Positions 659 to 14,683 of a DNA stretch of 64,000 nt are shown here, one piece after another. This DNA comes from a virus. Taxonomy: Duplodnaviria > Caudoviricetes. The notes beneath the pieces were generated by a model. The model saw nothing but the letters and a program-made list of their open reading frames with translations, did no database searches and had not been told where the DNA came from. The stretch is taken from positions 1,407-65,406 of the IMG/VR virus record IMGVR_UViG_3300031994_000097; one strand, written 5' to 3'. Each line of letters begins with the position of its first letter. Positions within the stretch are counted from its first letter, which is position 1. The position numbers were made by a program, and so were the translations under genes.

Positions 659-788
659 GTTATATACCTCCTATGTATTGGCTGTTTCTTAACTACAAGT
701 ATAATATATCATATATATATTAAGTTGTCAACACTAAAATTAAAAAATATTTATGGTAGTTACATTTAAATATATTGCTCTATCACAT

Positions 789-816
789 AAAAAAGAGCCG
801 CATAAAAACGGCTCTT
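789..816 (-). terminator. intrinsic terminator
   Basis: AAGAGCCG/CGGCTCTT stem with T-run on minus strand. Confidence 0.75.
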
Positions 817-821
817 AATGA

Positions 822-1199
822 TTATTCGTTTATAAACTTATAAATCATATCAATCTTAGATTGTGAAATACTATGTGAATTTGATAAGAACGTTGTGATT
901 GTACCAATAGAACTTATATTTCTATCATGACAACGCTTTGCAAATTCAGTCTTAGTAATATTGTGTTTGCGTATATACTCTAAACAATCTTTTCTCAATG
1001 TGATTGCTTTAAGTTCCTTATTAACAAACGTATTACTCTTATTATCAAGATATGATTTATAATCGTCCAATGTTTTACCATAACGCTTGATAACTTCATT
1101 TATATACTGTCTAGTACAGCCAAGAGTTTCGGCTGTAATAGACTGATTATAATTATTAAGTTCTAAAGTTTTGTACACGTTTATAATTTTATCATTCAT
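822..1199 (-). CDS. double helix-turn-helix DNA-binding protein (N-terminal HTH, C-terminal XRE-like HTH)
   Basis: NQSITAETLGCTRQYINEVIK and ITKTEFAKRC...SIGTITTFLS patterns; GGAGGT RBS before ATG 1199; own TTGACG promoter. Confidence 0.6.
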   Translation of the reverse strand: MNDKIINVYKTLELNNYNQSITAETLGCTRQYINEVIKRYGKTLDDYKSYLDNKSNTFVNKELKAITLRKDCLEYIRKHNITKTEFAKRCHDRNISSIGTITTFLSNSHSISQSKIDMIYKFINE

Positions 1200-1262
1200 T
1201 TCAATACCTCCAAGTATTATATTATCATAACATTTATATTGCGTCAATAGGTTTTTAAAAAA

Positions 1263-1859
1263 TCATACTACTTGTAGTTTACCTAAAGATGACTTACCAC
1301 ATCTCTTACAATAATAATCTTTAGTATGTTTAATCCACTTAGGTTCTCTTTGCCTATACACATCGGTTATAATACGATTACAACAAGGACATTTTAACCT
1401 ATAATGTTTCTGTTTTGATTTATTTTTCTCTATACGCTCTTTATTAACATCGGCGTTTAATCTTTCACTAAAATCCGAGCATCTAACAATATTCATATTG
1501 TAGCAATCATTAACCAATTCAGCATATTCTAACCATTTACCACCATGATGAGCACCTACACATTCATTACATGAATGAATCAATTCGTGCATCACCGTGG
1601 TACGTACACTATTAATATCATTTCTGTCATCCAATAAGAATGAACTAATGTTAATACTCATAGTTGCTGATATTGGTTCACGCTTTAACGTTATTGGATT
1701 ATATCTGTACTGTACATTACGATATTTACATTGACCATATCTTGTTTTTGCTCTTGTATTTACTGTAAATTCATTTTCAGTAATATTGGGATAAATACCA
1801 ATAGCGTTTAATTCAGCTATACACTCTTTTGCAATTTTCTTTAAGTCATACATTCCCAT
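1263..1859 (-). CDS. SprT-like zinc metalloprotease with C-terminal zinc ribbon
   Basis: YGQC, HELIH...HHGGKW zincin motif; CPCC...CKRCG. Confidence 0.8.
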   Translation of the reverse strand: MGMYDLKKIAKECIAELNAIGIYPNITENEFTVNTRAKTRYGQCKYRNVQYRYNPITLKREPISATMSINISSFLLDDRNDINSVRTTVMHELIHSCNECVGAHHGGKWLEYAELVNDCYNMNIVRCSDFSERLNADVNKERIEKNKSKQKHYRLKCPCCNRIITDVYRQREPKWIKHTKDYYCKRCGKSSLGKLQVV

Positions 1860-2119
1860 TTCTTTATTTCCTTTCGTCTTTTGATAAATCAACTATATCA
1901 AATTATATTTAGTTTGTCAAGCATATTTTTAAAATTATTTTTCTTTCTATTATACATAGAAAAATTGTGTGCATGATTAGTAGTAATTATATTTAAATAT
2001 AAACGTGTATATATAATTCTTATATAGAAGAAAAATTTTTTCAATTTATACTTGACAAATAAAATTCTATATGTTAATCTATCATTGTAAACGATAACAA
2101 ACATAAGAGAGGTAATAAT

Positions 2120-2380
2120 ATGACTTATCAAGATATTATGGAAATCTTAAAAGATTATGGACGTACTAAAGGACACGTATGGCTAGTAAAGGGATATTGT
2201 AATGATGCTACTATAGTACAACTTAAATATGATACTACAAGGCGTTATTTTATGACACGCATTTACGCATTATCTGAAACAAATGAATATTGCGATATTC
2301 CATTACAGAGAGTGCCACAAGATGTATTTCAGAACAATGTAGAATATTTATTATCACAAGGATATACAATTTCTTTTTAA
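2120..2380 (+). CDS. hypothetical protein
   Basis: GAGGT RBS; TTGACA promoter at 2052. Confidence 0.75.
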   Translation: MTYQDIMEILKDYGRTKGHVWLVKGYCNDATIVQLKYDTTRRYFMTRIYALSETNEYCDIPLQRVPQDVFQNNVEYLLSQGYTISF

Positions 2381-2395
2381 TAGGAGGATAACAAA

Positions 2396-2803
2396 ATGAA
2401 AAGATATGTATATTATCAGCCAAACGACAAGGATTTAAAAGATGAAGTAGGAGATTGTCAAATAAGAGCATTTAGTAAAGTACTAGGACTTAGTTGGTTA
2501 GAGGCTTTTGATTTAACAACGCCACTTTGTAGAGAATTACAGACATATACAATATTCGGTTGTGATTTAAAGAAAACAAAAGAGGCTATGAGTAAGTTAG
2601 GATTTGAATATACAGGTATATCTAACAAAAAGGGTAGTAAAAGACCGACAGTTGATGAGTTCGCTAAAAAGCATCCAATAGGAAAATATATTCTAAGTGT
2701 AGCAAACCATGTTGTAGCTTGCGTTGATGGAAAATATTACGACACTTGGGATAGCGGCTATAAATGCTTATATGGTTATTATGAGTTAAAGAATGAACAA
2801 TAA
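2396..2803 (+). CDS. conserved phage protein, possible papain/C39-like cysteine peptidase fold
   Basis: GDCQIRA...HVVACVDGKYYDTWDS (Cys-His-Asp arrangement); AGGAGG RBS. Confidence 0.55.
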   Translation: MKRYVYYQPNDKDLKDEVGDCQIRAFSKVLGLSWLEAFDLTTPLCRELQTYTIFGCDLKKTKEAMSKLGFEYTGISNKKGSKRPTVDEFAKKHPIGKYILSVANHVVACVDGKYYDTWDSGYKCLYGYYELKNEQ

Positions 2804-2814
2804 CCCCCTATCCA

Positions 2815-3015
2815 TTTTCAATCTCAATCTTGATTTTCAATTCTGATTCCGAATCTCAATTCTGAATTTCAATTTTGATTTTGAAAATGGATTTTTAATT
2901 TTCAATCTTAATTTTCATTTTGGATTCTTATATTTAAATCTATTTCCCATTTTAGATTTTCGATTTCAATTCTCATTTTAGATTCTAATTTCAATTCTAA
3001 TCCTAATCTTAATTA
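2815..3015. repeat. degenerate ~6-bp-period tandem array (RATYYY units)
   Basis: aatctc aatctt gatttt ... gattct aatttc aattct aatcct aatctt; non-coding. Confidence 0.75.
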
Positions 3016-3175
3016 CTTTTAAAATCCCCTTAAATCCCTTAAAAACTATTTACCTAACCAATTTACCATTAACCTATTTACCATGCCTTAAACAGCCAAA
3101 ATCGCAGAAATTTGACTATGTTATCCATTCAATGACCGCTTGACAATCCCAAATAAAAATAATCAAAATTTGTAC

Positions 3176-3203
3176 TTGACAACCAATTCTCATGTGATAT
3201 AAT
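3176..3203 (+). promoter_or_regulatory. sigma-A promoter with no downstream ORF
   Basis: TTGACA-16-TATAAT with TG extension. Confidence 0.65.
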
Positions 3204-3208
3204 AGACT

Positions 3209-3390
3209 CATAGACAAAGGGATTATATCTGTTGGGATAATGATATAATGATTCTATTGTTTATATCCATACTGTTGTTGTTTTTGTTTTCCAATTGCAT
3301 AGAGATTAGGTTGATTGTACAACCTACACAATCAACCTAAGATATGCAATCCTAAAGCGATAACGATAGCTTGATAGAACAGCCTAAAGG
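3209..3390 (+). ncRNA. candidate structured small RNA
   Basis: Downstream of promoter, no ORF; perfect 13-bp stem 3306-3318/3328-3340 inside TTGCAT/ATGCAA. Confidence 0.4.
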
Positions 3391-3399
3391 AATATAATA

Positions 3400-3770
3400 T
3401 ATGGCTATATGATAATATATAATAACAATAATAATATATAATATAATATATTTAACTATATCATAATAATAATTAACTAACTAATTATATATATATTTAA
3501 ATATAATAGACACCATCTGTACTACATATATGCACATCGCCCCAAAATTACGGATTCGCTATAAAGCCAAAATCGGCAAAAATACGTAATTTCACAAATT
3601 AAAGTTTTTGCAAATACTTTAACAATGTAAAGTGATAACGTGGCGACTTTTTAAAGTGATAATACGTTAGTGTAGTAGTGTAGTAAAACTACACTGCGTT
3701 AGTGTAGTAAAGTGATATATTTAAATATATGACCGAACAAGTGTTTATGATATATTTAAATATATCATCT
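3400..3770 (+). repeat. composite non-coding element copy 1 (others ~11670-11885 inverted, ~12920-13260 direct)
   Basis: TAACTAACTA tract, GCCCCAAA block, CTTTA-N6-TAAAG boxes and ATATATTTAAATATAT shared. Confidence 0.65.
3735..3746. promoter_or_regulatory. LexA/SOS-box-like site
   Basis: GAAC-AAGT-GTTT matches Firmicutes GAAC-N4-GTTY; lies between two palindromes. Confidence 0.45.
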
Positions 3771-3888
3771 TACTCCAATCCTTCTATAGAAAAAATATTT
3801 TTGAAAAAACCTATTGACAACTATATAATAATTTGATATAGTTAAGATGTTCCAAATAAATCATATCTAATTCATAGGAGGAAACATT

Positions 3889-4230
3889 ATGCAACCAAAA
3901 ATTTTAACAACAATCGAGAATTTTAACAATCTCATGGCTATGAGAGTATTCACAGAGGCTTGTGAACAGTGGTGCGTTGAGAACAAGAATTTTAAATACG
4001 AAATTGTAGTTAAAACTACATACTTCGATATGGGGCAAGATTGGAAGTATACAGCTTTTATCACTATAGACACCGACACGGAGGAAAGCTGGCAGAGCTT
4101 ATGTCCTAGAGATTGGGAGTTGGTAGTTGAAGAATCCGATATTAATAGAATTGTAGAAATGGCATGGTTCTACATGGATAACTTACAGAAACCATGGGAA
4201 GAACGCAAGCACCTTTACGAGAAGTTCTAA
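3889..4230 (+). CDS. hypothetical protein (array cassette)
   Basis: TTGACA 3814, AGGAGG RBS, terminator 4235-4262. Confidence 0.85.
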   Translation: MQPKILTTIENFNNLMAMRVFTEACEQWCVENKNFKYEIVVKTTYFDMGQDWKYTAFITIDTDTEESWQSLCPRDWELVVEESDINRIVEMAWFYMDNLQKPWEERKHLYEKF

Positions 4231-4507
4231 ACTAAACGGAGATGGTCAAACATCTCCGTTTTTATTATAGGCAGATGATATATTTAAATATAACCAATAT
4301 GGATATATTTAAATATATTATATCCATATTGGTTACAAAAATATTTTTAAAAAAGGTGTTGACAATCTATCTATAATTTGATATCATTATCTTGTCGATA
4401 AGGACAGCAGTTCACAAGAGCCTTTTAGCCGCTACTGTTTTATTGATAAACAATAACAATATTATAAAATCCTATTCAATATGCAATAGGTAGAAAAGAG
4501 GTTATTT

Positions 4508-4816
4508 ATGTACGTTGAAAATCTTTACAGTCCTAGGACAGGAGTTGCAGTCGCTAATCAGTTTGTTATTCATGATGAGGAACACAACAAAGTTACATTT
4601 CAGAGTTACTCTAGTAGAATTATGGAGCTTGACAGAAATAAGAAAACTTTATATATTGGTAGCAATTGGGATTATTCAGTAACTACAAGCAAATACAGAA
4701 ATCAGTTTGTAGCCGACTATCTTCCATATGAATTAAAGAGCTGTTTATCTACTAAAAAGGATATAATGAAAGCTCTTGAAGATGGAGAAGTAAACGGATG
4801 GAGGATAATCAGATAA
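4508..4816 (+). CDS. conserved phage hypothetical protein (NQF..FQSY..WDYS.TT.KY pattern)
   Basis: Promoter ~4359, GAGGT RBS. Confidence 0.85.
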   Translation: MYVENLYSPRTGVAVANQFVIHDEEHNKVTFQSYSSRIMELDRNKKTLYIGSNWDYSVTTSKYRNQFVADYLPYELKSCLSTKKDIMKALEDGEVNGWRIIR

Positions 4817-4965
4817 TGAAAAGTTTTGTTAATTACTTTATTGGGGCGTTTGCATTGTGTTGGTTGTTCATTTTTCCTATGGCTAATAATCCATATATCA
4901 AATATTTTGGTACGTTTATATGTGTTATCATTATTACGTTAATTGTTGTATGTCGTAAAGAATAA
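4816..4965 (+). CDS. 49-aa two-helix membrane peptide
   Basis: TAATG coupling to upstream gene; MKSFVNYFIGAFALCWLFIFPMANNPYIKYFGTFICVIIITLIVVCRKE; terminator follows. Confidence 0.7.
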   Translation: MKSFVNYFIGAFALCWLFIFPMANNPYIKYFGTFICVIIITLIVVCRKE

Positions 4966-5137
4966 GGGCGGTTTATCCGCTCTTATTTTATTGTAGGATG
5001 GTATATTTAAATATATGATAGAGTGATATATTTAAATATATGCTAAAAAATATTTTAAAAAATATATTGACAAACTATTCAGATTATGATACTATATATA
5101 CATAAGGTAATTCAATACATTTTAGGAGGATTTAATC

Positions 5138-5362: not shown

Positions 5363-5513
5363 TAATAAAAACGGAGTCGTAAAGGCTCTGTTTTTTTATC
5401 TTTTAATGATATATTTAAATATATCATTTTAAAATTTATACTTGACAATTGTATCAATATGGTATATTATAATTATAGTATCAATAATATATTATTCATA
5501 GGAGATTAAAACA

Positions 5514-5714
5514 ATGCTTTATTATTTAAGTTGTAGTGCATGGGGTTATGCTGTTTGTGTGGCTGATGACAATAATGATAAAAAATTATACGTGCGTACA
5601 GTTCATAAAGATGGTAGTTATGATTTTACAGCGGATTATTCATTGGCTAAAAGATGGAAAAATTGCGAACCAGCAAGAAAACACTTAGAGAATTTAAAGA
5701 ATAGCGACAATTGA
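5514..5714 (+). CDS. hypothetical protein (array cassette)
   Basis: TTGACA 5442, AGGAG RBS, terminator overlapping stop. Confidence 0.8.
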   Translation: MLYYLSCSAWGYAVCVADDNNDKKLYVRTVHKDGSYDFTADYSLAKRWKNCEPARKHLENLKNSDN

Positions 5715-5856
5715 GCCGCTATTCTTTATACTATAAACATATATTTAAATATATATCTATAAAAATATTTTTAAAATACTAGTTGACAATCATATATCAT
5801 TATGCTAATATATACTTGTAAGTTAAATATATCTTAATTTTATGGAGGATTTCAAT

Positions 5857-6381
5857 ATGAAAACAAATTACAAAAGAGCTTTAAAAGCAATGGCTAAAAT
5901 GGAAAAGAGAATATACTTTGATACACTTGACAGTGTAGTGCTTGTATCTGAAAGTCATTTTATTATCAGTGTACCATATGCAGAATGGCAGGAACTAGTT
6001 GAAGGTGTTGACGCTGTATTTAAAAAGAATGAACTATCACAGAATGATGCATTAAGAAAAATCTTTTATGATAATAAGGACGGTATAGGTGTACAGTGTG
6101 AAATGACTAACGCCGCTATATATTGTGGTGATAAGTTAACAAGAGTCTTTAAGGCTAGTGATTCTCTTGGAGTATTCAACGAAAAATTTTTAGATGTAGT
6201 ACGTGATACTATACACGCTGATTATCTTGTTTATGGTATGACAGTAAACACTACTAGCGAACAGATTAAAGTGCCTATGATACACGCTGATTTTGATGCT
6301 AATGATAAACTGATAAGTGGAGTGGCTATACTTCCTATCAATTGTAATGTAAGAGATGTATTTAATCACATATTAGAATAA
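5857..6381 (+). CDS. hypothetical protein, weak sliding-clamp-like pattern
   Basis: GGAGG RBS before ATG 5857; TTGACA 5783; terminator 6387-6410. Confidence 0.85.
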   Translation: MKTNYKRALKAMAKMEKRIYFDTLDSVVLVSESHFIISVPYAEWQELVEGVDAVFKKNELSQNDALRKIFYDNKDGIGVQCEMTNAAIYCGDKLTRVFKASDSLGVFNEKFLDVVRDTIHADYLVYGMTVNTTSEQIKVPMIHADFDANDKLISGVAILPINCNVRDVFNHILE

Positions 6382-6573
6382 ATATAAAAGGGATAGAAAT
6401 ATCCCTTTTTATTTTATCAGTAATCATATATTTAAATATATAAGCTAAGATATATTTTAATATATCCAATTTATCGTACTAAAATTTTTCAAAATAATTC
6501 TTGACATTAAATTATTTATCATATATAATAAAAGAGAATTAAATAATAACTTTTTATTAAGGAGGACGTAATT

Positions 6574-6987
6574 ATGTCAGAATACACACAGATGGCAGAT
6601 GATTTTTGCACTAAGCATGGAGTTTCAATCATCATTAAACAAGGAGAGAACCACAAGCCACCAATTACAGATGGTCTAGGTTATAGAGTTAAAATTAAGC
6701 GTATTGTAAATGGTAAATTAAGACAGTATAGTTTTGATTTTTCAGATAGTTTTCATAATAAAGTGTATGGTCTACAACCTACAAACTATGACATACTTGC
6801 TTGTCTTGAAAAGTACGAAATCGGAGATTTTGAAGATTTTTGTTGTGAGTTTGGTTATCCTATGACCGATGATTATGGCAGAATCAACAGAGCAAACAAG
6901 AAGCTATATAACGCTTGTGTGAAAGAATGGTACAATGTTAGACGTATGTTTGACGATTGCCTTGATGAGCTGAGAGAGATTAATTGA
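6574..6987 (+). CDS. conserved phage hypothetical protein (PT.YDILACL..FEDFC.EFGY pattern)
   Basis: AAGGAGG RBS; promoter ~6500; terminator ~6995-7025. Confidence 0.9.
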   Translation: MSEYTQMADDFCTKHGVSIIIKQGENHKPPITDGLGYRVKIKRIVNGKLRQYSFDFSDSFHNKVYGLQPTNYDILACLEKYEIGDFEDFCCEFGYPMTDDYGRINRANKKLYNACVKEWYNVRRMFDDCLDELREIN

Positions 6988-7154
6988 GTTAACGAAAGAC
7001 CGATAGATTTTTATCGGTCTTTTTGTTTGAGTATAGAATAGATTTAAATATATGTCTAAAATATTTTTTAAAAAAAATAGTTGACAAATGAAATCAAAGT
7101 GCTATAATAATATATGTAAGGTAAATCAATAATAAATTCTAGGAGGATTTAACA

Positions 7155-7424
7155 ATGAGTAAATTAAGTGGTGTAGGTGTAAATGGTTATGGTTTTACTT
7201 TTAATCGTAAGAGCGGCAAGGTCATTCAGACTCTTGAAGGTAACGTACCAATGCTAAGAATGGCAGGAATGAAGCTATCAGCTACTAGAGATTACGTGGT
7301 TGTTGGTAAGGATAATCTAATATATGCCTACTATGAAGGCAGAAAAGACACAATGCCACATATTTGCGATGATATGGTTGGTATGGATGCTAAAAAGATA
7401 GGCATTGATGTTTCACAGTTCTAA
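7155..7424 (+). CDS. hypothetical protein (array cassette)
   Basis: TTGACA 7081..TGCTATAAT, AGGAGG RBS, terminator. Confidence 0.85.
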   Translation: MSKLSGVGVNGYGFTFNRKSGKVIQTLEGNVPMLRMAGMKLSATRDYVVVGKDNLIYAYYEGRKDTMPHICDDMVGMDAKKIGIDVSQF

Positions 7425-7609
7425 AAGATAAATCAGAGAACACTAACAATCGTTCTCTGATTTTTTTTATTATATATAGATATATTTAAATATATAAGAA
7501 TAAAATTAAATAAAAATATTTTGAATAAAAGTGTTGACAAATGATATAAACAAGAGTAATATAATATATGTAAGATAAATAAATCTTTTAAACCTAGGAG
7601 GTAAATATT

Positions 7610-8155
7610 ATGTTATTTGATTATGACGCTTTAAGTAGAGCAATTGAGGACAAGTTCGACTATGAATTGGGAAAATTCGTAAATGGTGATGAGGATGAAG
7701 TTGCTGACGTTTGCGAACAGATTGACAGCTACAATGGATTTTTGGGTGATGATAGATATTATCCTATGGATGAAATTGATGAGCTTGTCAGCATTGAAGG
7801 TAAGTCAGTTCTTGAAGTTCTTGATATGTTCGCGAGTGACTTTGATTTAGACGATGATTATTTTCAGTATGGTATCTATGGTATTAGTTCCACTGACAGC
7901 CGTGATTATGTTTCTTTACTTGGTGCATCTGAAATCACAGAGCAGATTAAAGATAATATCAATCAAGTTGATAATGAGGATTTAGAGGTTATTTTTGACA
8001 ATGAAGATTGTGCAAGCACAGAACTCGATGACCTTGAAGAGCTTTTTGCAGACATTGAAGAGGATGACGAAGAGGGCATGAAAGACGCACAGAATCAGCT
8101 TGAAGATTTTATCAATAATTACGGATTAAAAGAATACTTAGATATTGAAGAGTAA
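7610..8155 (+). CDS. highly acidic protein, DNA-mimic candidate
   Basis: ~58 D/E vs ~9 K/R in 181 aa; own promoter, AGGAGGT RBS, terminator. Confidence 0.85.
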   Translation: MLFDYDALSRAIEDKFDYELGKFVNGDEDEVADVCEQIDSYNGFLGDDRYYPMDEIDELVSIEGKSVLEVLDMFASDFDLDDDYFQYGIYGISSTDSRDYVSLLGASEITEQIKDNINQVDNEDLEVIFDNEDCASTELDDLEELFADIEEDDEEGMKDAQNQLEDFINNYGLKEYLDIEE

Positions 8156-8341
8156 TCTTAAATAGGGATAGTCAATCTATCCCTATTTTATTTTATTATG
8201 CATATATATTTAAATATAACCTACTATATATTTTAATATATCTTTATAAAAATATTTTCAATTTACCTATTGACAATATAACTTATATTTGTTAATATAT
8301 ACTTAGTTCCAAACAATACAACTTAATAGGAGGGTTTCAAT

Positions 8342-8620
8342 ATGTTAAATATTGAAGTTGAATACAAACACGATAGAGTGCTTGTGCATGGTTTATCTTT
8401 TAATTTTGCTTGTGATATGATTGAATCGGTAATCGTTCCAACTAGCTTTAAGGTTATCTTTATGAACGGCAATACGTTTTATAAAGACCGTAAAGACAAC
8501 AAGTCATTTGCAAGGTTTAATGAAGTGTTTGATACTCTTGTAATCAATCGTAAATATATAGATAAAGAAAAATGGAATAAATACATCAAAATCAAAGGTG
8601 CAATTTCATTTTCTAATTGA
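8342..8620 (+). CDS. hypothetical protein (array cassette)
   Basis: Promoter ~8270, AGGAGG RBS, terminator ~8626-8659. Confidence 0.85.
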   Translation: MLNIEVEYKHDRVLVHGLSFNFACDMIESVIVPTSFKVIFMNGNTFYKDRKDNKSFARFNEVFDTLVINRKYIDKEKWNKYIKIKGAISFSN

Positions 8621-8782
8621 GATTTAGAAAAGCGGTTTAATCGCCGCTTTTCTTTTTTTGTTGATTATTATATTTAAATATATTAGTCTATAACTTTTTT
8701 TATTTTACCCTATTGACAAATGTTTATAAATGATTATAATAGATAATGTAAACAATATTTATTCACTTTGGAGGTAGATAAT

Positions 8783-9415
8783 ATGAAAAGCACAGATGAT
8801 ATCGTAAAATTAGCAAAAGAGTTATGCGAAAAGGAAATTGCAAGAACTATAACATTATTGAAAGACAATGAGGATAAATGGAATGAATACATGGATTTAA
8901 AGTTACATAATTGTGCCGCAGTCGATAATATAGAGATTGAAAAGAATGGTATCAAAATCACTGTTAATAATGTGTATGAAACATTTTTTAGTACATTTTG
9001 CGATGTACAGTATCAACAGTTTTTAGATGATTGCAGTGAGGAAGGAATAGATTTTAACAAGTTGCGTGATAATGTTGGACGTACTAGCAGTTTTTATTTA
9101 GGTATTTTACACGATGATACAACATATATGGACGTATTACAAGATTTTTCTTGCGCTTTAGGTGAAAGTAGTTTACAGTTTAAATATGTTGCTGATATTG
9201 AAACCTATATGATACGTTTTGAAGATGAGAATAATATAAGTGAAACCGAAGTAGAAGAAATGTTGTTTATCACTAAATGTATATACTCTGAAATAGAGGA
9301 TGCGTTAGCTGATATTATCACTGTATATAATCTCATAGATAACTTTAAGAATAATCAAGTTGAGATATATAAAGACTTTATTGAGTATGAAGTTGCAGAT
9401 AGATTAGCAGTGTGA
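8783..9415 (+). CDS. acidic hypothetical protein (array cassette)
   Basis: GGAGGT RBS before ATG 8783; TTGACA 8713..TATAAT. Confidence 0.85.
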   Translation: MKSTDDIVKLAKELCEKEIARTITLLKDNEDKWNEYMDLKLHNCAAVDNIEIEKNGIKITVNNVYETFFSTFCDVQYQQFLDDCSEEGIDFNKLRDNVGRTSSFYLGILHDDTTYMDVLQDFSCALGESSLQFKYVADIETYMIRFEDENNISETEVEEMLFITKCIYSEIEDALADIITVYNLIDNFKNNQVEIYKDFIEYEVADRLAV

Positions 9416-9554
9416 TACAGATGAGATAGAGATTATTTCTCTATCTCATTTTTTGCATGGTGATATATATTTAATTATATCTTATGGTGTATATTTAAAT
9501 ATATCGTCATCGTATCAGTTTACATCTTGTATCAATAAGTATAAAGTAAAACAT

Positions 9555-9660
9555 ACTCGATTTTATTGTTTATTTGACGTTTTAGGCGTATGAAGTTGAT
9601 TTATAGTACAATTTACCATAAACGAATAAAATGCGCTTAAATCGCCAAAATCACAGATTT
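9555..9660. repeat. ~95-bp imperfect palindromic element (copies ~3020-3110, 12195-12295, 12825-12915, 14325-14420, 36005-36095)
   Basis: Shared arm TTAAAgtcGCTTAAAacGCcAAAAT; often central AATTTACCAT. Confidence 0.65.
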
Positions 9661-9785
9661 TTAATTTTATAATTATTTTTAAAAAAGTTGTTGACATTAA
9701 AATGATTTAGTAGTAATATAATACTTGTAAGGCGGTTACGTCTTACATATCACATTGAAAACTTAATACATAGGAGGATTTAATC

Positions 9786-10124
9786 ATGTTATTTCTTGAA
9801 AACGTTCTAGGCGACCTTCATACAACTGCCAATGTAAAGGTTCTGTTATCATCATATACAGTGTACGGTATTGGAGAAACGGACAATCCTATACGTATGC
9901 AAGATGGTTGTGGTAATCATCGAGTTATGAATTGGCTTGATGCTATGGCAGATGAAAACTTATTCAAACAGTTCCTTGTTGAATCTGTTAAATGTGAGTT
10001 TGAATCATCTTACATGGATAAACCACAATGGACTGTAGTTCTTGCAAACGGCAAGGATGAGCGCACAAGTAGATTAGAATATAGTTCTAACTACAGAGCT
10101 TGTCATGAAGCAGGTTTAATCTGA
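9786..10124 (+). CDS. hypothetical protein (array cassette)
   Basis: TTGACA 9691, AGGAGG RBS. Confidence 0.85.
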   Translation: MLFLENVLGDLHTTANVKVLLSSYTVYGIGETDNPIRMQDGCGNHRVMNWLDAMADENLFKQFLVESVKCEFESSYMDKPQWTVVLANGKDERTSRLEYSSNYRACHEAGLI

Positions 10125-10356
10125 ATGAGATTCGGCGTTAGTGGTAAACGTGGCAACAGAAAACCACTTTTTATTTGAGCAAGAAGGTATATTTAAATAT
10201 ATAGTATAGATATAATTAAATATATATAATCTAAAATAATCTAACTTAATTAAAAAACTTTAAACAATTATTTTAAAAGTTTTTGTTGACATATACTTAT
10301 AACTATGATAATGTATATACAGAGCTACTTATTAACTATCATATGGAGGTTTTATT

Positions 10357-10575
10357 ATGAATACTATTAAAGGTTTTATCGAAGCATTAAAGAAGGATAA
10401 AGGTTATGACTATCTTGCTAACAATTACCAGAACATGAGTAAAGAAGAGCTTGAACGAATCGCACTTGAATTTCTTTATGAGTTAACAAGTGAAATGCAT
10501 GAAGCAGATATTAACAACGCTATTGAAGAGTTAGAAGATTTCTTTAGTTATGAATGGGAGGATGACAATGAGTAA
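10357..10575 (+). CDS. small acidic hypothetical protein
   Basis: GGAGGT RBS, promoter ~10286. Confidence 0.8.
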   Translation: MNTIKGFIEALKKDKGYDYLANNYQNMSKEELERIALEFLYELTSEMHEADINNAIEELEDFFSYEWEDDNE

Positions 10576-10777
10576 ACAATTTGCAGTAGGTGATTATAGT
10601 TGGAAAACTGTTAGTGAAATTATTGATATGGTAAACGCTAATTGCGACATCGCCAATGAAGAGCGCATACCAATGAAGATTATACATGAGGATTTAGGTT
10701 GGTTTATTGAGTGTCTTAATGAATCAGATGAGGACAGATTAGATAAGCACCTAAAATATATTTATGGAATAGAGTAG
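10568..10777 (+). CDS. hypothetical protein
   Basis: GGAGG RBS before ATG 10568; terminator at stop. Confidence 0.75.
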   Translation: MSKQFAVGDYSWKTVSEIIDMVNANCDIANEERIPMKIIHEDLGWFIECLNESDEDRLDKHLKYIYGIE

Positions 10778-10941
10778 GGTAAAACCTACTCTTTATTATT
10801 TAGAGATATAATTAAATATATGTTAGAGATATAATTAAATATATTGTCTTAAAATTATTTTATAAACTTTTAAAAAACATATTGACAATATAATCTAATA
10901 GTATTACAATTGTCTTATCAAAACAAATGGAGGTTATTTAT

Positions 10942-11232
10942 ATGATTAGAGGAATTTTATTAGGCGTTATGATGTTAATTGATACAGCTAATATCAATAC
11001 TTGTGATATTGATAATCTGTATGCTAAATCAATGTTAGTCTATGAGGTAGACAGAGAATATGATATATTATATCTTACTGACTCAAACGGCAACGGATGG
11101 GAATATGTAGGCATTGAGGACTTAGGCGTTGGTGATGTAGTTGATTGCTTAATGTATGACAATCAGACAGATATAATCTATGATGATAAGATTGTTAAAT
11201 TGCAATACAGCGGATTTACAACAGAGGGTTGA
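10942..11232 (+). CDS. hypothetical protein with hydrophobic N-terminus (possibly exported)
   Basis: GGAGGT RBS; MIRGILLGVMMLI; terminator at stop. Confidence 0.75.
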   Translation: MIRGILLGVMMLIDTANINTCDIDNLYAKSMLVYEVDREYDILYLTDSNGNGWEYVGIEDLGVGDVVDCLMYDNQTDIIYDDKIVKLQYSGFTTEG

Positions 11233-11363
11233 ACAAACCCTCTTTTTAGATTATATATTTAAATATATATCCTATAAATATTTTTAAAAAAAGTATTGAC
11301 AAATAAATATAATAGGTGTATTATAATTATATAAGATAAATCAATTCAAGAGAGGTGTTAATT

Positions 11364-11648
11364 ATGAAAGCTGAAAGAGTTGCTAGAATCAAGAGATGTT
11401 TAAAAGAGTATGATATGTCGTTCAATAGTGCTACAGAGCGTCCTTATTATTTTGAAGAGTCGCTAATATTCGATAAAGTTACTAATCGCCGTTATTGGTC
11501 TAGTCCTAAAGGATTCTTTAGTAACATAGCCGACTTAGAAGCATACAGACAAAATGAAACTAAAGTAACTGCTTATCGTGTTTGTATTTGGCATGAAGAG
11601 TGCGGCGAAATAAAGCCACAGCTTATATATGTAAAGGGAGTGGAGTAA
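11364..11648 (+). CDS. hypothetical protein (array cassette)
   Basis: GAGGTG RBS; promoter ~11296; terminator 11634-11664. Confidence 0.8.
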   Translation: MKAERVARIKRCLKEYDMSFNSATERPYYFEESLIFDKVTNRRYWSSPKGFFSNIADLEAYRQNETKVTAYRVCIWHEECGEIKPQLIYVKGVE

Positions 11649-11944
11649 TCCACTTCCTTTTTTTATTTGATGAACTATATATTTAAATATATCGCTTTAT
11701 CACGTTAAAGTTTTGAAAACTATTTTATTTTTTCTATTTGACATTCTCGTTTAAAATTGGCTTATAAAGGACTTGAATATTTTGGGGCAATATGATATAT
11801 ATAATATATAGCTGATGATTAAAATAGTACTTGACTTTTATAGTTAGTTATTATAATATAATCATATAGTTAGTTATTTAGTTGTTTAAGAACTAAATGA
11901 AAAATCATAGTTGACAACATAAACAAACTATGATAATATAATTA

Positions 11945-12165
11945 TAGAACATTGTTAACGATATACTTGAATGAGGTTATACAATCCATCCCTTTCTGAT
12001 AATGTGATAAACCTCTTTTGAATAAATATTGAATCCTTATGTAATCTCATTCAAGTATTTATACTTATATTTGTAGAGGGCGTGACAACAACTTGCGACA
12101 CCCTTCACCTCCTATGAAATAGAAATAGAGCGTATCGACTTTGATTCGGTACGCTTTATTTCTTT
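11945..12165 (+). ncRNA. candidate sRNA carrying anti-Shine-Dalgarno sequence
   Basis: TTGACA 11911 promoter, no plus-strand ORF, 13-bp stem 11963-11975/12046-12058, TCACCTCCT 12105-12113, terminator 12121-12163. Confidence 0.5.
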
Positions 12166-12299
12166 ATATGATTCTATATTTAAATCTATATATTTATTTC
12201 GTTTTTAGGCAGCAGGCGTGTTATTTTAATTTAGATAATAAAATCCCTTAGTGAATAATTAAAACCGTCTTAAAGGTCAAAATTCAAAGAAATATAAAT

Positions 12300-12495
12300 A
12301 CATTTAGAATCAGATTCTAAAATCTAAAATCAAAATTGATTTTTGATTCTAATTATAATTTTAAATTTTAAAATTAGATTTTAAAATTAGATTTAAATAT
12401 ATGTTTTATAATTTAGATTTTAAAATTAAAATTAGATTTTAAAATTAGAATTAAAATCTAAAATCAGAATCTAAAATTAAAATCTAAAATTATTT
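12300..12495. repeat. second degenerate hexamer-type array (AAAATC/AAAATT/AGAATC units)
   Basis: ctaaaatctaaaatcaaaatt...aaaatctaaaatcagaatctaaaattaaaatctaaaatt. Confidence 0.75.
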
Positions 12496-12590
12496 TTTAA
12501 AACCTATTGACATAAAATAAAAACCATGCTATCATGTAATCAGTTCAAAAGAAATACCACAAACAACAAACATTTAGGAGGATTAGAAAA

Positions 12591-12773
12591 ATGAGAACAT
12601 GGGTTAATGGAGAATTCAGCAAGGCAGATGCAAGTGCAGTAAAGATGTATCTTAAAACCAAGGGTATCAAATACGAGCCTAGCCAAGTCGGTGACATGAT
12701 TCATATTGAGGCTTATATGACCGCTAACGAGCTGACAGAGTTTAATGATTGGATTGATGATACACTTGAATAA
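12591..12773 (+). CDS. hypothetical protein (array cassette)
   Basis: TTGACA ~12507, AGGAGG RBS, terminator ~12783-12820. Confidence 0.8.
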   Translation: MRTWVNGEFSKADASAVKMYLKTKGIKYEPSQVGDMIHIEAYMTANELTEFNDWIDDTLE

Positions 12774-13213
12774 ACATAAGATAATAGGATGAGGTCAAAC
12801 GGCTTTATCCTATTATTTTTTTATTGTATTTATTAGCCGATTCTAGCCATCTAAAATCTAAAATGGTAAAGTTGACCGACTGAATGATTAAAGTGTCTTA
12901 AAAGCCAAAAATAAAGGAAATAAAGCTATATTATAATAACTATATAATAATAACTATAATATATAAATATATATAATTAACTAACTATTTAAATATATAT
13001 TATATATATACTAAGGCATCAGCTGTACACTATATCGTCCATATGCCCCCAAATTTACGAGCGCGCTTTTACAGAAATCTCAGAATCGGAAAAAATATAT
13101 TTAAATATATCCGAACATTTATTCGGACTTTACTGCGGTAAAGTGGCATAATTTTACAGCGTTATCACGTTAATACTTTATCATAATAAAGAGATAGATT
13201 TAAATATATCATC

Positions 13214-13225
13214 GAACAATTGTTC
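13214..13225. promoter_or_regulatory. LexA/SOS-box-like site (weaker copy at 13113-13124)
   Basis: Perfect GAAC-AATT-GTTC preceded by C. Confidence 0.5.
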
Positions 13226-13599
13226 TTGACTTTACCGCTTTATCATAATAAAGCGATTGTCTTACAATTTAATAAGTTTATTTAATTGTGTAAACAATTC
13301 TATACAACTTTCGATTTTTTCTGGATCAGACTTAAATTGTGTACACAATATTTTTTATTATCTGAAAATATGAATAAATTGTTAACATTTATAAAAATCA
13401 CTTGACAAAAATAATTTTATGTATTCTTTAGTACGTTAAAGTAACATAGTAAAAAATGATTTTTTCACATTATATAGAAAGAAAAATTTTTTTTGATTTT
13501 TTGAAAAAAAGTATTGCAATATATTAAAATATATGTATAATAATACTCGTAAGGCAATTCAATATTTCAATAGCGCAAGGCGCAGAAAGTAGGTATAAT

Positions 13600-14151
13600 A
13601 TGAAGAGTGCAACAATTTACAACCCAACACACAAGATTGCAAAGGTTTACGATGGTAACGCAACTAGCAATTTAACAAGTTACGACGGCTTATCAATGGT
13701 CAAATGTGATAAAGTCAATCATGGGAGTTATAAGATTTATATCAATGACGAAAAAACAATTTATAACAATCTGCTTCACATTTATGCTAAAGATAAAAAA
13801 GAATTGATTGAAGTCAACGCGACTTTTAATTATAGCAAGTTGACGGAGTCAGAAAAAATATGGTGTCTGGCATATATCGAACAAAACAATATGATATGTA
13901 GTAAACAATTAAATAACTTAGTCGTATCAATGTATATCGACAAAAACGATATACCGAACAATTTTAGTTATTTGAGCCAATTATTTAAAACCCTCTGCCA
14001 CAATGTAGATACGAAATATAGTTTAATTGACTATGATAATAAAGGCAAAAAAACAATTGAGTCTTTAAATGATTATCACGATATAGTGAAAAGTTTACAA
14101 GCGAGATATCGTCAATCGGTAACAAGCAATATATATCTAACTAAAATCTAA
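13600..14151 (+). CDS. hypothetical protein (last plus-strand cassette)
   Basis: TTGCAA..TATAAT promoter; terminator 14162-14198. Confidence 0.8.
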   Translation: MKSATIYNPTHKIAKVYDGNATSNLTSYDGLSMVKCDKVNHGSYKIYINDEKTIYNNLLHIYAKDKKELIEVNATFNYSKLTESEKIWCLAYIEQNNMICSKQLNNLVVSMYIDKNDIPNNFSYLSQLFKTLCHNVDTKYSLIDYDNKGKKTIESLNDYHDIVKSLQARYRQSVTSNIYLTKI

Positions 14152-14683
14152 AATATGATTTAAAAATAGAGTGCTGGATAATAGCACTCTATTTTTTTAT
14201 TATCTATATAATTGTATGCAATATAATAGCACTATAAACGTATTACATACAATATAATTGTACTATTAAAGTAATACAATGACGCTTGTATGACACTAAC
14301 TAACTAAAGACTAAATATAGTCTTTTTTCGCTTATTTTTACCCATAGAATAAATTAAAATATATTTATTGTGTATTTTATCATGGATAAATTAAAGTCGC
14401 TTAAAACGCAAAAATGAGGAAACGATATTAGATAAAATAGTTTCCATATTGATAAACGATAAAACGATAAAAATTTTTATGATTTTATGTAAAGACTTGA
14501 AAGGCGCATAAACAGTGGGATTGCTTAGAGTGGGAGGCTTGAGATGCAGAGCTGGTGCCCCTCCCACCACTTTTCAAATTTACGTTTAAAAATATTTTAA
14601 ATAACGAGGTGTAGCTGATACAGGGATAGCTCCCAAAGCCAATTTCACCCATATAACAAAATAAGAGAGTCTTTCAACTCTCT

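What the first reader, a model, noticed from the sequence alone, without database searches (positions are those of the whole stretch)
690..14200. Integron-like array of ~20 self-contained gene cassettes with shared non-coding punctuation
Seen: from ~3.8 to 11.7 kb, 14 consecutive units share one grammar: hairpin terminator, ATATATTTAAATATAT (1-2 copies), A/T tract, TTGACA promoter, strong RBS, then one (twice two) short unrelated ORFs. Related units continue at 11.9-14.2 kb and diverge leftwards from ~2 kb. Known: strong-promoter clusters of small genes form host-takeover modules (SPO1 terminal repeat, SPbeta early repeated elements). Inference: a plug-in library of host-takeover/anti-defence genes whose conserved junctions allow cassettes to be swapped, added or co-regulated.
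Basis: partly seen in the sequence, partly recalled or inferred. Interest (0 to 1): 0.85.

Follow-up and report, generated by a model that had tools for sequence, protein, structure and literature searches.

The report
Phage early-gene array with palindrome punctuation
A fragment of an uncultured ruminant-gut phage carries a row of small unknown genes, each with its own strong promoter and terminator and separated by one shared 16-base palindrome, and a relative has swapped one gene between conserved junctions.

Summary
ATATATTTAAATATAT (up to 2 mismatches) occurs 46 times in the window against 1.23 expected, 35 of them at 760-14364. Fourteen consecutive units at 3.7-11.7 kb share one grammar: terminator, palindrome x1-2, UP-like A/T tract, TTGACA-17-TAnAAT, GGAGG, then 1-2 unrelated ORFs.

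It is the host-RNA-polymerase-dependent early region of a low-GC phage fragment (65.4 kb, CheckV 37% complete). The closest known analogues are the PeSL promoter/terminator cassettes of T4-type phages and the SPO1 host-takeover module, not an integron. Every unit has its own promoter, there is no attC-like site, and the record holds no integrase or resolvase.

The one relative recovered (R1) shows replacement of ORF1 plus its terminator stem by an unrelated ORF between about 98% identical junctions. It also shows a highly diverged ORF4 allele and gain of a palindrome copy at two junctions.

Two spacing regularities stand out. The palindrome starts 12-17 nt after 15 early terminators and after 0 of 12 terminators elsewhere. 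Its centre is helically phased with the -35 box (R 0.72, P 0.002). One copy lies inside a promoter spacer. I read it as an operator for an unidentified dimeric protein. This is inferred, not shown.

The parts
401..1920 (-). Leftward early units. Promoter 1920-1892 drives a SprT-like ORF (1263-1892). Next comes a 125-aa ORF with two HTH-like stretches (822-1199), then terminator 816-793, palindrome variant 760-775, promoter 731-703 and ORF 401-658.
   Evidence: Promoter and terminator scan; Pfam SprT-like 3.9e-9; translation; the same terminator-to-palindrome spacing of 17 nt on the minus strand.
1987..2803 (+). Palindrome variant 1987-2002 between divergent promoters. The rightward promoter (TTGACA at 2052) drives ORFs 2120-2380 and 2396-2803.
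   Evidence: the second ORF matches phrog_3754 at 1e-26, unknown function.
2804..3700 (+). Complex non-coding block: about 13-nt repeats at 2810-3010, consensus promoters at 3140 and 3176, a structured candidate RNA at 3210-3400, and an A/T repeat block at 3391-3506.
   Evidence: fold z-score -5.35.
3715..4260 (+). Unit 1: palindromes at 3715 and 3750, -35 at 3814, ORF 3889-4230 (113 aa), terminator 4235-4260. In relative R1 the ORF and terminator stem are replaced by an unrelated 107-aa ORF.
4278..4986 (+). Unit 2: palindromes at 4278 and 4303, -35 at 4359, a long leader, ORFs 4508-4816 and 4816-4965 (the second is hydrophobic), terminator 4962-4986.
   Evidence: phrog_21575 at 8.7e-12. This is the only one of 19 array ORFs tested with a homologue in Enterocloster phage PMBT24.
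5001..5395 (+). Unit 3: palindromes at 5001 and 5026, -35 at 5067, ORF 5138-5362, terminator 5367-5395.
   Evidence: 12 synonymous against 5 nonsynonymous codon changes versus R1.
5409..5721 (+). Unit 4: palindrome at 5409, -35 at 5442, ORF 5514-5714, terminator 5702-5721. R1 carries a 38%-identical allele, and identity drops next to the flanking palindromes.
5739..6409 (+). Unit 5: palindrome at 5739, -35 at 5783, ORF 5857-6381, terminator 6386-6409.
6426..7021 (+). Unit 6: palindromes at 6426 and 6450, -35 at 6501 (a 12/12 consensus promoter), ORF 6574-6987, terminator 6996-7021.
   Evidence: 40 synonymous against 11 nonsynonymous changes versus R1.
7038..7462 (+). Unit 7: palindrome at 7038, -35 at 7081 (12/12 consensus), ORF 7155-7424, terminator 7431-7462.
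   Evidence: 16 synonymous and 0 nonsynonymous changes versus R1.
7480..8188 (+). Unit 8: palindrome at 7480, -35 at 7534, ORF 7610-8155 (181 aa, net charge -49), terminator 8160-8188.
8204..8653 (+). Unit 9: palindromes at 8204 and 8226, -35 at 8270, ORF 8342-8620, terminator 8626-8653.
8668..9448 (+). Unit 10: palindrome at 8668, -35 at 8713 (12/12 consensus), ORF 8783-9415 (net charge -26), terminator 9422-9448.
9465..10168 (+). Unit 11: palindromes at 9465 and 9489 lie next to the upstream terminator. A 186-nt spacer follows, then -35 at 9691, ORF 9786-10124 and terminator 10140-10168.
   Evidence: This unit shows that the palindrome stays with the terminator when the intergenic region is long.
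10187..10792 (+). Unit 12: palindromes at 10187 and 10210, -35 at 10286, ORFs 10357-10575 and 10568-10777, terminator 10771-10792.
10806..11240 (+). Unit 13: palindromes at 10806 and 10829 (an exact 23-nt tandem duplication), -35 at 10882, ORF 10942-11232, terminator 11226-11240.
11253..11692 (+). Unit 14: palindrome at 11253, -35 at 11296, ORF 11364-11648, terminator 11633-11660, closing palindrome at 11677.
11911..12189 (+). A unit without an ORF: promoter at 11911, a roughly 220-nt structured candidate RNA, terminator 12127-12157, palindrome variant at 12174.
   Evidence: fold z-score -5.26; Rfam gathering thresholds give no family.
12290..12812 (+). A 13-nt repeat array (12290-12500, inverted relative to 2949-3000), promoter at 12507, ORF 12591-12773, terminator 12785-12812 with no palindrome after it.
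12919..14193 (+). A/T repeat block 12919-13013, then palindromes at 13095 and 13194. Promoter TTGCAA(13514)-16-TATAAT holds a 15/16 palindrome copy in its spacer (13519-13534). ORF 13600-14151 and terminator 14165-14193 follow.
   Evidence: the ORF model is alpha/beta with no PDB match.

Best explanation
This is the immediate-early region of an uncultured low-GC phage of the ruminant gut, transcribed by the host RNA polymerase. It is built from about 20 insulated transcription units.

Each unit has:
- a near-consensus sigma-A promoter, made of an UP-like AAAATATTTTTAAAAAA tract, TTGACA, a 16-17 nt spacer and TAnAAT, often with TG;
- a leader of roughly 35 nt (about 70 nt from the -35 box to the start codon) with GGAGG;
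- one or two small accessory ORFs, or in two cases a structured RNA;
- a strong intrinsic terminator.

The junctions form one repeated family of about 130-190 nt and do two things.

(1) Regulation (inferred). The 16-bp perfect palindrome sits 12-17 nt past each terminator stem, in one or two copies 22-25 bp apart. Its centre lies near -60, -70, -81, -92 or -103 relative to the promoter. I read it as an operator for a dimeric DNA-binding protein, not identified. That protein would co-regulate the whole set of early promoters, most likely by shutting them off, and may also block read-through.

(2) Plasticity (shown for one relative). Because all junctions resemble each other, homologous recombination between junctions replaces, adds or removes promoter-ORF-terminator modules without breaking regulation. 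This is the mechanism proposed for the PeSL cassettes of T4-type phages.

What is shown and what is inferred:
- Shown: the anatomy, its statistics, coding constraint on the ORFs, and one cassette replacement.
- Inferred: early timing, protein binding to the palindrome, the direction of regulation, and the host-takeover function of the ORFs.

My odds: early multi-promoter accessory array 0.85; junction-mediated modular exchange 0.65; palindrome as a protein operator 0.5.
For: Anatomy and enrichment.

Phage identity:
- NrdD, portal, PhoH and exonuclease families.
- Portal 40% identical to Enterocloster phages.
- The 847-aa protein is 24% identical to the PMBT24 CDS annotated as an RNA polymerase. 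A phage polymerase for later genes is therefore plausible.

The ORFs are real genes. Against R1, synonymous changes outnumber nonsynonymous ones: 16 to 0 in ORF7, 40 to 11 in ORF6, 12 to 5 in ORF3.

The ORFs are accessory in character:
- 0 of 20 Pfam hits.
- No paralogy.
- Only 1 of 19 has a homologue in PMBT24.
- Several are very acidic, with net charges of -49, -26, -14 and -13.

Exchange at junctions, R1 against the window:
- ORF1 and its terminator stem are replaced by an unrelated 107-aa ORF. Identity of about 98% runs up to the RBS on the left and resumes at the T-tract on the right.
- The ORF4 allele is 38% identical, and identity drops beside the palindromes.
- One extra palindrome copy (a 24-29 nt insert) is present at each of two junctions.
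- Junctions J5-6 and J6-7 are 95.8% and 92.8% identical, against 83-94% for neighbouring ORFs.
- The palindrome is the longest exact block shared by junction pairs: median 15 nt, maximum 22, against 8 and 13 for coding controls.

Operator reading:
- The site is a perfect dyad with symmetric information content.
- 15 of 23 early-region terminator calls are followed by it at 12-17 nt, against 0 of 12 terminators elsewhere in the window.
- The centres of the promoter-proximal copies are periodic at 10.5 bp: R 0.72, P 0.0018 after scanning 7 periods.
- In R1, junction J3-4 shifted by 10 bp, from -60.5 to -70.5, which keeps the phase.
- Tandem copies are 22-25 bp apart in 7 of 8 pairs. As I recall, this resembles the 23-24 bp spacing of lambda operators.
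- A 15/16 copy lies inside the spacer of the promoter at 13514.
Against: - Early timing, monocistronic transcripts and mini-circles are therefore untested.
- Only one relative could be read, as two short contigs of one assembly. The exchange argument rests on two events.
- No binding protein is identified. Pfam found no HTH family in 54 other proteins, only a weak HU-family match at 3.4e-4. The neighbouring 125-aa ORF with HTH-like stretches has only weak PDB hits at E 0.2. The ORF behind the operator-bearing promoter models as an alpha/beta protein with no DNA-binding match.
- The junctions are related by descent. The phasing and spacing statistics therefore overstate independence, and indels of about 10-11 nt in the A/T tract could produce apparent phasing without selection.
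- The tight coupling to the terminator would equally fit a purely cis-acting role in termination.
- More distant phages with similar multi-promoter arrays (L085, L086) and PMBT24 lack any such palindrome. It is therefore not needed for this type of array.
Confidence: 0.6

Rival explanations
1. A true integron-like platform. The palindrome is the crossover site of a site-specific recombinase, encoded on the missing part of the genome or by the host, which excises and inserts cassettes as circles.
For: - Cassette content differs in R1.
- Palindrome copy number changes by whole units.
- One exchanged segment (ORF4) is bounded by palindromes.
- The site sits at the 3' end of each cassette, as attC sites do.
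- The record is only 37% complete.
- The mosaic relative G001 carries a 293-aa serine recombinase behind a junction-type promoter.
Against: - No Phage_integrase or Resolvase match in the 65.4-kb record, and no tblastn match to the G001 recombinase.
- The ORF1 replacement has its breakpoints at the RBS and the terminator T-tract, not at the palindrome.
- Every cassette has its own promoter.
- A 16-bp A/T-only dyad is unlike attC sites, whose features I give from recall.
Confidence: 0.05
2. The palindrome is a purely cis-acting DNA element with no dedicated protein. It could be downstream duplex DNA that raises termination efficiency or insulates neighbouring strong promoters. It could also be a flexible upstream element that adds to the UP tract.
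For: - Constant position 12-17 nt after the stem (mean 15.3, sd 1.7, n 15), while the distance to the -35 box ranges from 17 to 186 nt.
- In unit 11 the palindrome stays with the terminator across a 186-nt spacer.
- No binding protein was found.
Against: - 0 of 12 terminators outside the early region carry it.
- Perfect dyad symmetry and tandem copies at 22-25 bp are not required for a termination context.
- Copies occur without terminators (3715, 3750, 13095, 13194) and inside a promoter spacer (13519).
- Helical phasing with the promoter.
Confidence: 0.2
3. Stoperator-like silencing. The phage is temperate or can persist, and an immunity repressor binds the roughly 33 sites to silence toxic early genes and stop elongating polymerase, as in cluster A mycobacteriophages.
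For: - Many copies of one site confined to intergenic positions at gene boundaries.
- A position just past terminators suits a roadblock.
- One site lies inside a promoter.
- Stoperators are described as numerous repressor sites that also terminate elongation (PMC9283540; I saw only the start of the abstract in the search listing).
Against: - No integrase, repressor or lysogeny module was seen in the 65.4 kb.
- Stoperators, as I recall them, are asymmetric 13-mers oriented with transcription. This site is a symmetric 16-mer.
- The closest isolates are phages of about 100 kb. Their life style is not stated in the outputs I saw.
Confidence: 0.12
4. The shared punctuation is only the trace of how the array grew, by repeated duplication of one junction. 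It is kept by gene conversion, and the palindrome has no function of its own.
For: The whole junction is a repeat family, including the leader (GTAAGGTAAATCAAT-like) and the RBS context. There is an exact 23-nt tandem duplication at 10800-10844.
Against: - The palindrome is far better conserved than its flanks, at about 1.0-1.4 bits per position against about 0-0.2 outside.
- It is retained next to non-homologous terminators, including the different terminator of the R1 ORF4 allele.
- Its spacing and phase are kept despite indels.
Confidence: 0.08

Closest known systems
PeSL (promoter-early stem-loop) regulatory cassettes in the hyperplastic regions of T4-type phages (Arbiol et al. 2010, PMC2839356: abstract and sections 13 and 16 read; Comeau et al. 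2014, PMC4122927: abstract read)
   Same: - A repeated intergenic motif that combines a consensus sigma-70-type early promoter, an AT-rich upstream tract, a stem-loop terminator and an RBS.
- It flanks single ORFans.
- Differences between close relatives are insertions, deletions and replacements bounded by the motifs.
- The proposed mechanism is homologous recombination between motifs that carry their own promoter and terminator.
   Different: - A different phage lineage and host phylum: a low-GC anaerobe phage whose portal is 40% identical to those of Enterocloster phages.
- The terminator precedes the promoter as a separate element. It does not overlap the promoter.
- A 16-bp perfect palindrome, in 1-2 copies, is added between terminator and UP tract, with fixed spacing and helical phasing. 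Nothing like it appears in the sections I read.
- Mini-circles could not be tested here.
Host-takeover module of Bacillus phage SPO1 (passages of PMC6873191 read; Stewart et al. 1998 seen only in its reference list)
   Same: - A cluster of about 20-26 small early genes with promoters and ribosome-binding sites typical of highly expressed genes.
- Mostly of unknown function.
- A Firmicute host.
- Some products are very acidic. SPO1 Gp44 is described as a DNA mimic in the abstract listing of PMC8208478.
   Different: - SPO1 groups its genes into operons, whereas these units are almost all monocistronic.
- No sequence relationship to named SPO1 proteins was found.
- Location in a terminal redundancy cannot be tested on this fragment.
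- The passages I read mention no shared palindrome.
Stoperators of cluster A mycobacteriophages (PMC9283540, start of the abstract in the search listing only)
   Same: Dozens of copies of one short protein-binding site, placed in short intergenic regions across a block of genes and acting on transcription.
   Different: - Stoperators are asymmetric and oriented, and are bound by a monomeric immunity repressor of temperate phages.
- Here the site is a symmetric dyad and no repressor is known.
- The life style of this phage is unknown.
Integron gene-cassette arrays (features recalled, no paper read)
   Same: A row of unrelated small genes with a repeated palindromic element at each cassette's 3' end, and cassette content that varies between relatives.
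   Different: - No IntI and no attI.
- No attC structure.
- Each cassette has its own promoter and terminator.
- Breakpoints are not at a fixed crossover point.

Membership tests
Integron | Adjacent tyrosine recombinase IntI | tested here: not met
   PF00589 gives 0 matches in the 65.4-kb record, while the control rings in 14 of 14 genomes. The record is only 37% complete, so absence from the whole phage is not shown.
Integron | attC sites (long imperfect palindromes with conserved core sites; definition recalled) | tested here: not met
   The punctuation is a 16-bp A/T-only perfect dyad whose flanks carry almost no information.
Integron | Promoterless cassettes expressed from a common promoter | tested here: not met
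   All 14 core units have their own TTGACA-16/17-TAnAAT promoter with an UP-like tract.
Integron | Cassette excision as circles at the recombination site | not testable with these tools
PeSL-type regulatory cassettes | Repeated intergenic motif with a consensus sigma-70-type early promoter and an AT-rich upstream tract | tested here: met
   Four promoters score 12/12, and the consensus AAAATATTTT-AAAAAA tract ends 4 nt before TTGACA.
PeSL-type regulatory cassettes | Stem-loop terminator within the same motif | tested here: met
   18 terminator-like sites against 3.7 expected, and a terminator at each of the 14 junctions. It lies upstream of the promoter and does not overlap it.
PeSL-type regulatory cassettes | Flanks ORFans in a plastic region | tested here: met
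   Pfam hits 0 of 20. PHROGs gives families of unknown function plus one marginal endonuclease VII match, E 0.0031. Only 1 of 19 ORFs is shared with PMBT24.
PeSL-type regulatory cassettes | Replacements and indels between close relatives bounded by the motifs | tested here: met
   One relative (L029 plus L049) shows the ORF1 replacement, the ORF4 allele and two palindrome-copy indels. The sample is one genome.
PeSL-type regulatory cassettes | Belongs to T4-type myoviruses | tested here: not met
   The portal's best isolates are Enterocloster phages at 40% identity. This is an analogue by architecture, not by lineage.
SPO1-type host-takeover module | Cluster of small early genes with strong promoters and RBS | tested here: met
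   compared with passages of PMC6873191.
SPO1-type host-takeover module | Lies in the terminal redundancy | not testable with these tools
   The record is a linear fragment and no reads could be laid.
SPO1-type host-takeover module | Products shut off host functions | not testable with these tools
   Only indirect hints: very acidic products, and an ORF8 fold that matches only uncharacterised proteins of Firmicute phages.
Stoperator system | Many copies of one repressor site in intergenic regions | tested here: met
   33 sites at 760-13519, all intergenic.
Stoperator system | Asymmetric, transcription-oriented site with a cognate immunity repressor (definition recalled) | tested here: not met
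   The site is a symmetric dyad and no repressor was identified.

The most novel reading that the evidence does not exclude
The palindrome is a dual-purpose site. One dedicated DNA-binding protein uses it to control about 20 insulated early promoters from helically phased upstream positions. The same site, or the protein bound to it, also targets recombination. On this reading the array is a genuine phage-borne cassette platform, a functional counterpart of an integron in which each cassette brings its own promoter and terminator.
Probability: 0.07. Interest if true: 0.85.

Novelty: new variant of a known kind. Interest (0 to 1): 0.55.

Why it matters
The array shows that the 'portable promoter/terminator junction' way of organising and shuffling accessory early genes extends beyond the T4-type phages of Gram-negative hosts, where it was described. 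Here it occurs in an unrelated phage of anaerobic low-GC gut bacteria.

It adds a new element: one perfect palindrome at every junction, with fixed spacing to the terminator and helical phasing to the promoter. That points to a single factor controlling a whole library of host-takeover or anti-defence candidates.

In practice the array offers about 20 compact units with clear boundaries, each an ORF with a defined promoter and terminator, for functional screens. It also offers a set of very strong, insulated promoter-terminator parts for low-GC anaerobes. It sets one simple testable question: what binds the 16-mer.

Tried and rejected
Searches for relatives that led nowhere:
- Megablast of 3700-11700 against GenBank phages: no match.
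- IMG/VR scan for palindrome plus TTGACA: 16 loci, all single chance hits.
- IMG/VR scan for tandem palindromes: 23 loci, 0 related by blastn.
- The SprT-like neighbour in IMG/VR: none.
- The junction pattern in GTDB genomes: 11 loci, 0 related.
- In the metagenome scan, 22 of 24 loci were chance hits.

G001 (L017, L025, L026) is a mosaic relative, 96-99% identical in blocks over genome positions 38004-65115. Its 35 kb does not include the array.

PMBT24 and the IMG/VR contigs L085 and L086 were examined for an equivalent punctuation. None was found.

Function of the ORFs:
- PDB sequence searches of ORF8, ORF10 and the 125-aa ORF gave nothing significant.
- The ESM Atlas gave no usable hit for ORF8.
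- Foldseek against the PDB found nothing for ORF8 or ORF16.
- BFVD gave only uncharacterised phage proteins for ORF8.

The idea that ORF16 is the autoregulated palindrome binder was dropped: its model is alpha/beta with no DNA-binding match.

A homodimer prediction for the 125-aa ORF returned 'no answer'. It counts neither for nor against.

Rfam found no family for the two candidate RNAs.

A literature search for the 16-mer found 0 papers. A keyword search for a similar phage punctuation found nothing relevant. I therefore found nothing in print on it, within the library those two searches cover. No supplementary files were opened. The PeSL papers' supplements might list motif variants that I could not see.

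They are not used as evidence of variants or of habitat, beyond the fact that two runs of one sheep-gut sample hold the whole stretch and may be its source.

Full report
WHAT THE RECORD IS

The window is bases 1407-65406 of a single 65,406-nt virus record. The record is classed as linear, with a CheckV completeness of 37%. It is about 30% G+C.

It encodes an anaerobic ribonucleotide reductase, an exonuclease, a PhoH-like protein and a portal. It also encodes ThyX, a SprT-like protein and a DNA methylase, and one tRNA-Gln.

The nearest isolates are Enterocloster phages of about 100 kb, at only 40% portal identity. GenBank phages give no nucleotide match to the array.

Two runs of one sheep-gut sample hold the whole array and may be its source. 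I therefore treat the record as a fragment of an uncultured phage of a low-GC anaerobe from the ruminant gut.

THE OBSERVATION

ATATATTTAAATATAT with up to two mismatches occurs 46 times against 1.23 expected, and 35 of these lie at 760-14364. A weight-matrix scan of the whole record gives 35 sites, 33 of them at 760-13519. The composite junction pattern occurs 8 times against 0.00 expected. Terminator-like hairpins are enriched in 1-16000: 18 against 3.7.

Reading the sequence and tabulating the junctions confirms fourteen consecutive + strand units from 3.7 to 11.7 kb. Each unit follows this order:
- an intrinsic terminator;
- a palindrome in one copy (6 junctions) or two copies (8 junctions);
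- an A/T tract;
- TTGACA, a 16-17 nt spacer and TAnAAT;
- a leader of fairly constant length, with 60-76 nt from the -35 box to the start codon in 12 of 14 units;
- GGAGG;
- one ORF, or two ORFs in two of the units.

The A/T tract has the consensus AAAATATTTT-AAAAAA. In the 7 junctions that match the pattern, its core lies 9-14 nt before the -35 box. It fits the UP-element consensus as I recall it.

The 20 ORFs of the region share no similarity with each other.

The grammar recurs on the minus strand at 816-703. It continues in looser form at 11.9-14.2 kb.

THE ORFS ARE GENES, AND ACCESSORY ONES

Against the one relative found, synonymous codon changes outnumber nonsynonymous ones: 16 to 0 in ORF7, 40 to 11 in ORF6, and 12 to 5 in ORF3.

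None of the 20 ORFs hits Pfam. PHROGs gives families of unknown function plus one marginal endonuclease VII match at E 0.0031. Only ORF2a of the 19 tested has a homologue in PMBT24.

Several products are strongly acidic. ORF8 has a net charge of -49 over 181 residues, and ORF10 has -26.

ORF8 has 20 close relatives (76-93% identical) in other assemblies and distant ones in 11 IMG/VR contigs of 28-52% G+C. Its model (pLDDT 79.8) matches nothing in the PDB. In BFVD it matches only uncharacterised proteins of Firmicute phages.

A host-takeover or anti-defence role is therefore plausible by analogy with SPO1 (passages of PMC6873191). It is not shown.

WHAT THE JUNCTIONS DO FOR GENOME PLASTICITY

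A scan of metagenome contigs with the junction pattern returned 24 loci. Two of them, L029 and L049, are true relatives. They come from one assembly and are identical where they overlap. Together they form one relative, R1, that covers window 3466-7800.

Compared with the window, R1 differs as follows:
- ORF1 and its terminator stem are replaced by an unrelated 107-aa ORF with its own terminator. Identity of about 98% runs up to the RBS on the left and resumes at the T-tract before the palindromes on the right.
- ORF4 is present as an allele of only 38% amino-acid identity. Nucleotide identity collapses just after the upstream palindrome and recovers around the downstream one.
- Junctions J4-5 and J6-7 each carry one extra palindrome copy, as a 24-29 nt insert.
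- Junctions J5-6 and J6-7 are better conserved (95.8% and 92.8%) than the ORFs beside them (83-94%).

Within the window, the longest exact block shared by any two junctions is the palindrome: median 15 nt and maximum 22, against 8 and 13 for coding controls.

This is the picture drawn for the PeSLs of T4-type phages. PeSLs are repeated intergenic motifs made of a consensus early promoter, an AT-rich tract and a stem-loop terminator. They flank ORFans and serve as portable homology for replacement, deletion and insertion (PMC2839356, abstract and sections 13 and 16; PMC4122927, abstract).

The breakpoints here are spread over the junction, which argues for homologous rather than site-specific exchange. 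The sample is one relative and two events.

WHY IT IS NOT AN INTEGRON

Every unit has its own promoter. The punctuation is a 16-bp A/T-only dyad. No Phage_integrase or Resolvase family member is present in the record.

G001 is a mosaic relative that shares 96-99% identical blocks with the structural half. It does carry a 293-aa serine recombinase behind a junction-type promoter, but that gene has no counterpart in this record. Because the record is incomplete, a recombinase elsewhere in the genome cannot be excluded.

THE PALINDROME

Four regularities go beyond what a promoter-terminator junction needs.

First, it is tied to early terminators. With one uniform terminator definition, 15 of 23 terminator calls in the early region are followed by a palindrome that starts 12-17 nt after the stem (mean 15.3, sd 1.7). 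Of the eight without one, six are minus-strand readings of bidirectional hairpins (five of them hairpins already counted on the + strand) and two are the + strand terminators after ORF15 and ORF16. None of the 12 terminators elsewhere in the window has one. In unit 11 the palindromes stay next to the terminator although the promoter is 186 nt away.

Second, it is phased with the promoter. Counting the first T of the -35 hexamer as -35, the centres of the promoter-proximal copies fall at -60.5, -68.5, -70.5 (twice), -71.5 (twice), -72.5, -78.5, -80.5, -81.5, -83.5, -91.5, -103.5 and -229.5. A Rayleigh test gives R 0.72 at a period of 10.5 bp, and P 0.0018 after allowing for the seven periods tried. 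In R1, junction J3-4 has moved by 10 bp, from -60.5 to -70.5. These positions recall those of upstream activator sites in E. coli, which I cite from memory only. The junctions share ancestry, so this P value overstates independence.

Third, tandem copies are 22-25 bp apart start to start in 7 of 8 cases.

Fourth, a 15/16 copy lies in the spacer of the promoter at 13514, and copies occur without terminators at 3715, 3750, 13095 and 13194.

A perfect dyad with symmetric information content that follows these four rules is most simply an operator for a dimeric protein. That protein would co-regulate all the early promoters, and I favour shut-off.

I could not identify the protein:
- Pfam finds no HTH family among 54 further proteins, only a weak HU-family match. 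That match is probably ORF 40193-40663, judged from its sequence.
- The 125-aa ORF at 822-1199 on the minus strand looks like it has two HTH stretches. Its PDB hits are weak, at E 0.2, and it has only four close relatives.
- ORF16 models as an alpha/beta protein with no DNA-binding match.

PMBT24 and two IMG/VR phages with similar multi-promoter arrays have no such palindrome. The palindrome is therefore a lineage-specific addition.

RIVALS

- A purely cis-acting termination or insulation element fits the terminator coupling. It does not fit the dyad symmetry, the tandem spacing, the sites without terminators, or the absence from other terminators.
- A stoperator-like silencing system (PMC9283540, listing abstract only) is a variant of the operator reading. 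It would need a temperate life style, for which I saw no evidence.
- A junction that is a mere trace of duplication is contradicted by the much higher conservation of the 16-mer than of its flanks.

WHAT COULD NOT BE DONE

Transcription, excised circles and terminal redundancy are therefore all untested.
The longer contigs that hold close relatives could not be read.

VERDICT

The array is a new variant of a known kind: a PeSL-like architecture in an unrelated phage of gut anaerobes. Its unexplained feature is a palindrome that is spaced from the terminators and phased with the promoters. That feature is the part worth following up.

Noticed in passing
window 3176-3400 and 11911-12166: Two consensus early promoters (3176 scores 12/12) are followed by no ORF. 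Each is followed by an RNA of about 190-220 nt that folds far better than shuffles (z -5.35 and -5.26). The second ends in a terminator followed by a palindrome variant, like a protein cassette. Rfam has no family for either.
   Followed up: partly
window 2810-3010 and 12290-12500; genome C1:1-35: Arrays of about 13-nt repeats (gattttaga / tctaaaatc type) flank the core array in inverted orientation (arms 2949-3000 and 12439-12490 are 81% complementary). By eye, the first roughly 35 nt of the contig look like an inverted copy of window ~2811-2845. These could be replication or packaging sites, the edges of a terminal repeat, or an assembly break at a repeat.
   Followed up: no
window ~3100, 3565, 9650, 12905, 14405, 36090: A second repeated non-coding box of the type (t)taaa..gccaaaatc..ca(g)a recurs in the long intergenic regions. 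Similar 'gccaaaat' boxes are seen upstream of promoters in the IMG/VR contigs L085 and L086.
   Followed up: no
window 3729-3745, 13111-13125, 13209-13224: Sequences of the form CGAAC-N4-GTT(T/C), or one mismatch from it, sit directly beside or between palindromes at both ends of the core array. They resemble Firmicute LexA boxes as I recall them.
   Followed up: no
window 13514-13541: The promoter of ORF 13600-14151 (TTGCAA-16-TATAAT) carries a 15/16 palindrome copy in its spacer. This is the only place where the site overlaps core promoter elements.
   Followed up: partly
window 37056-39599: This 847-aa protein (phrog_8308, unknown function; no Pfam hit) is 24% identical over 453 residues to the Enterocloster phage PMBT24 CDS annotated 'RNA-dependent RNA polymerase'. 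It may be a phage-encoded RNA polymerase for later genes.
   Followed up: partly
window 40193-40663: A 156-aa protein that looks HU/IHF-like by its sequence. It is probably the single weak Bac_DNA_binding match (3.4e-4) among the 54 proteins scanned. That call does not say which member matched.
   Followed up: no
window 21500-21900 and 36200-36800: Two further complex non-coding regions lie at strand-switch points. They hold palindrome variants (21699 is exact), A/T-only repeat blocks and direct repeats (accaccac...gtaatatggttt).
   Followed up: no
G001 (L025, L026), record positions 1-9900: This IMG/VR fragment is 96-99% identical in blocks to genome 38004-65115. Beyond that it continues into different genes, including a 293-aa serine recombinase behind a junction-like promoter, and what look like tail genes interrupted by an inserted gene.
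   Followed up: partly
window 4359-4507: Unit 2 has an unusually long leader (149 nt from the -35 box to the start codon) with a G+C-rich hairpin. The leader is almost invariant in R1 and may be a regulatory leader.
   Followed up: no
window 7610-8155: ORF8 has 58 acidic residues out of 181 (net charge -49) and homologues in phages of 28-52% G+C. It is a candidate DNA mimic, but no solved fold matches.
   Followed up: partly
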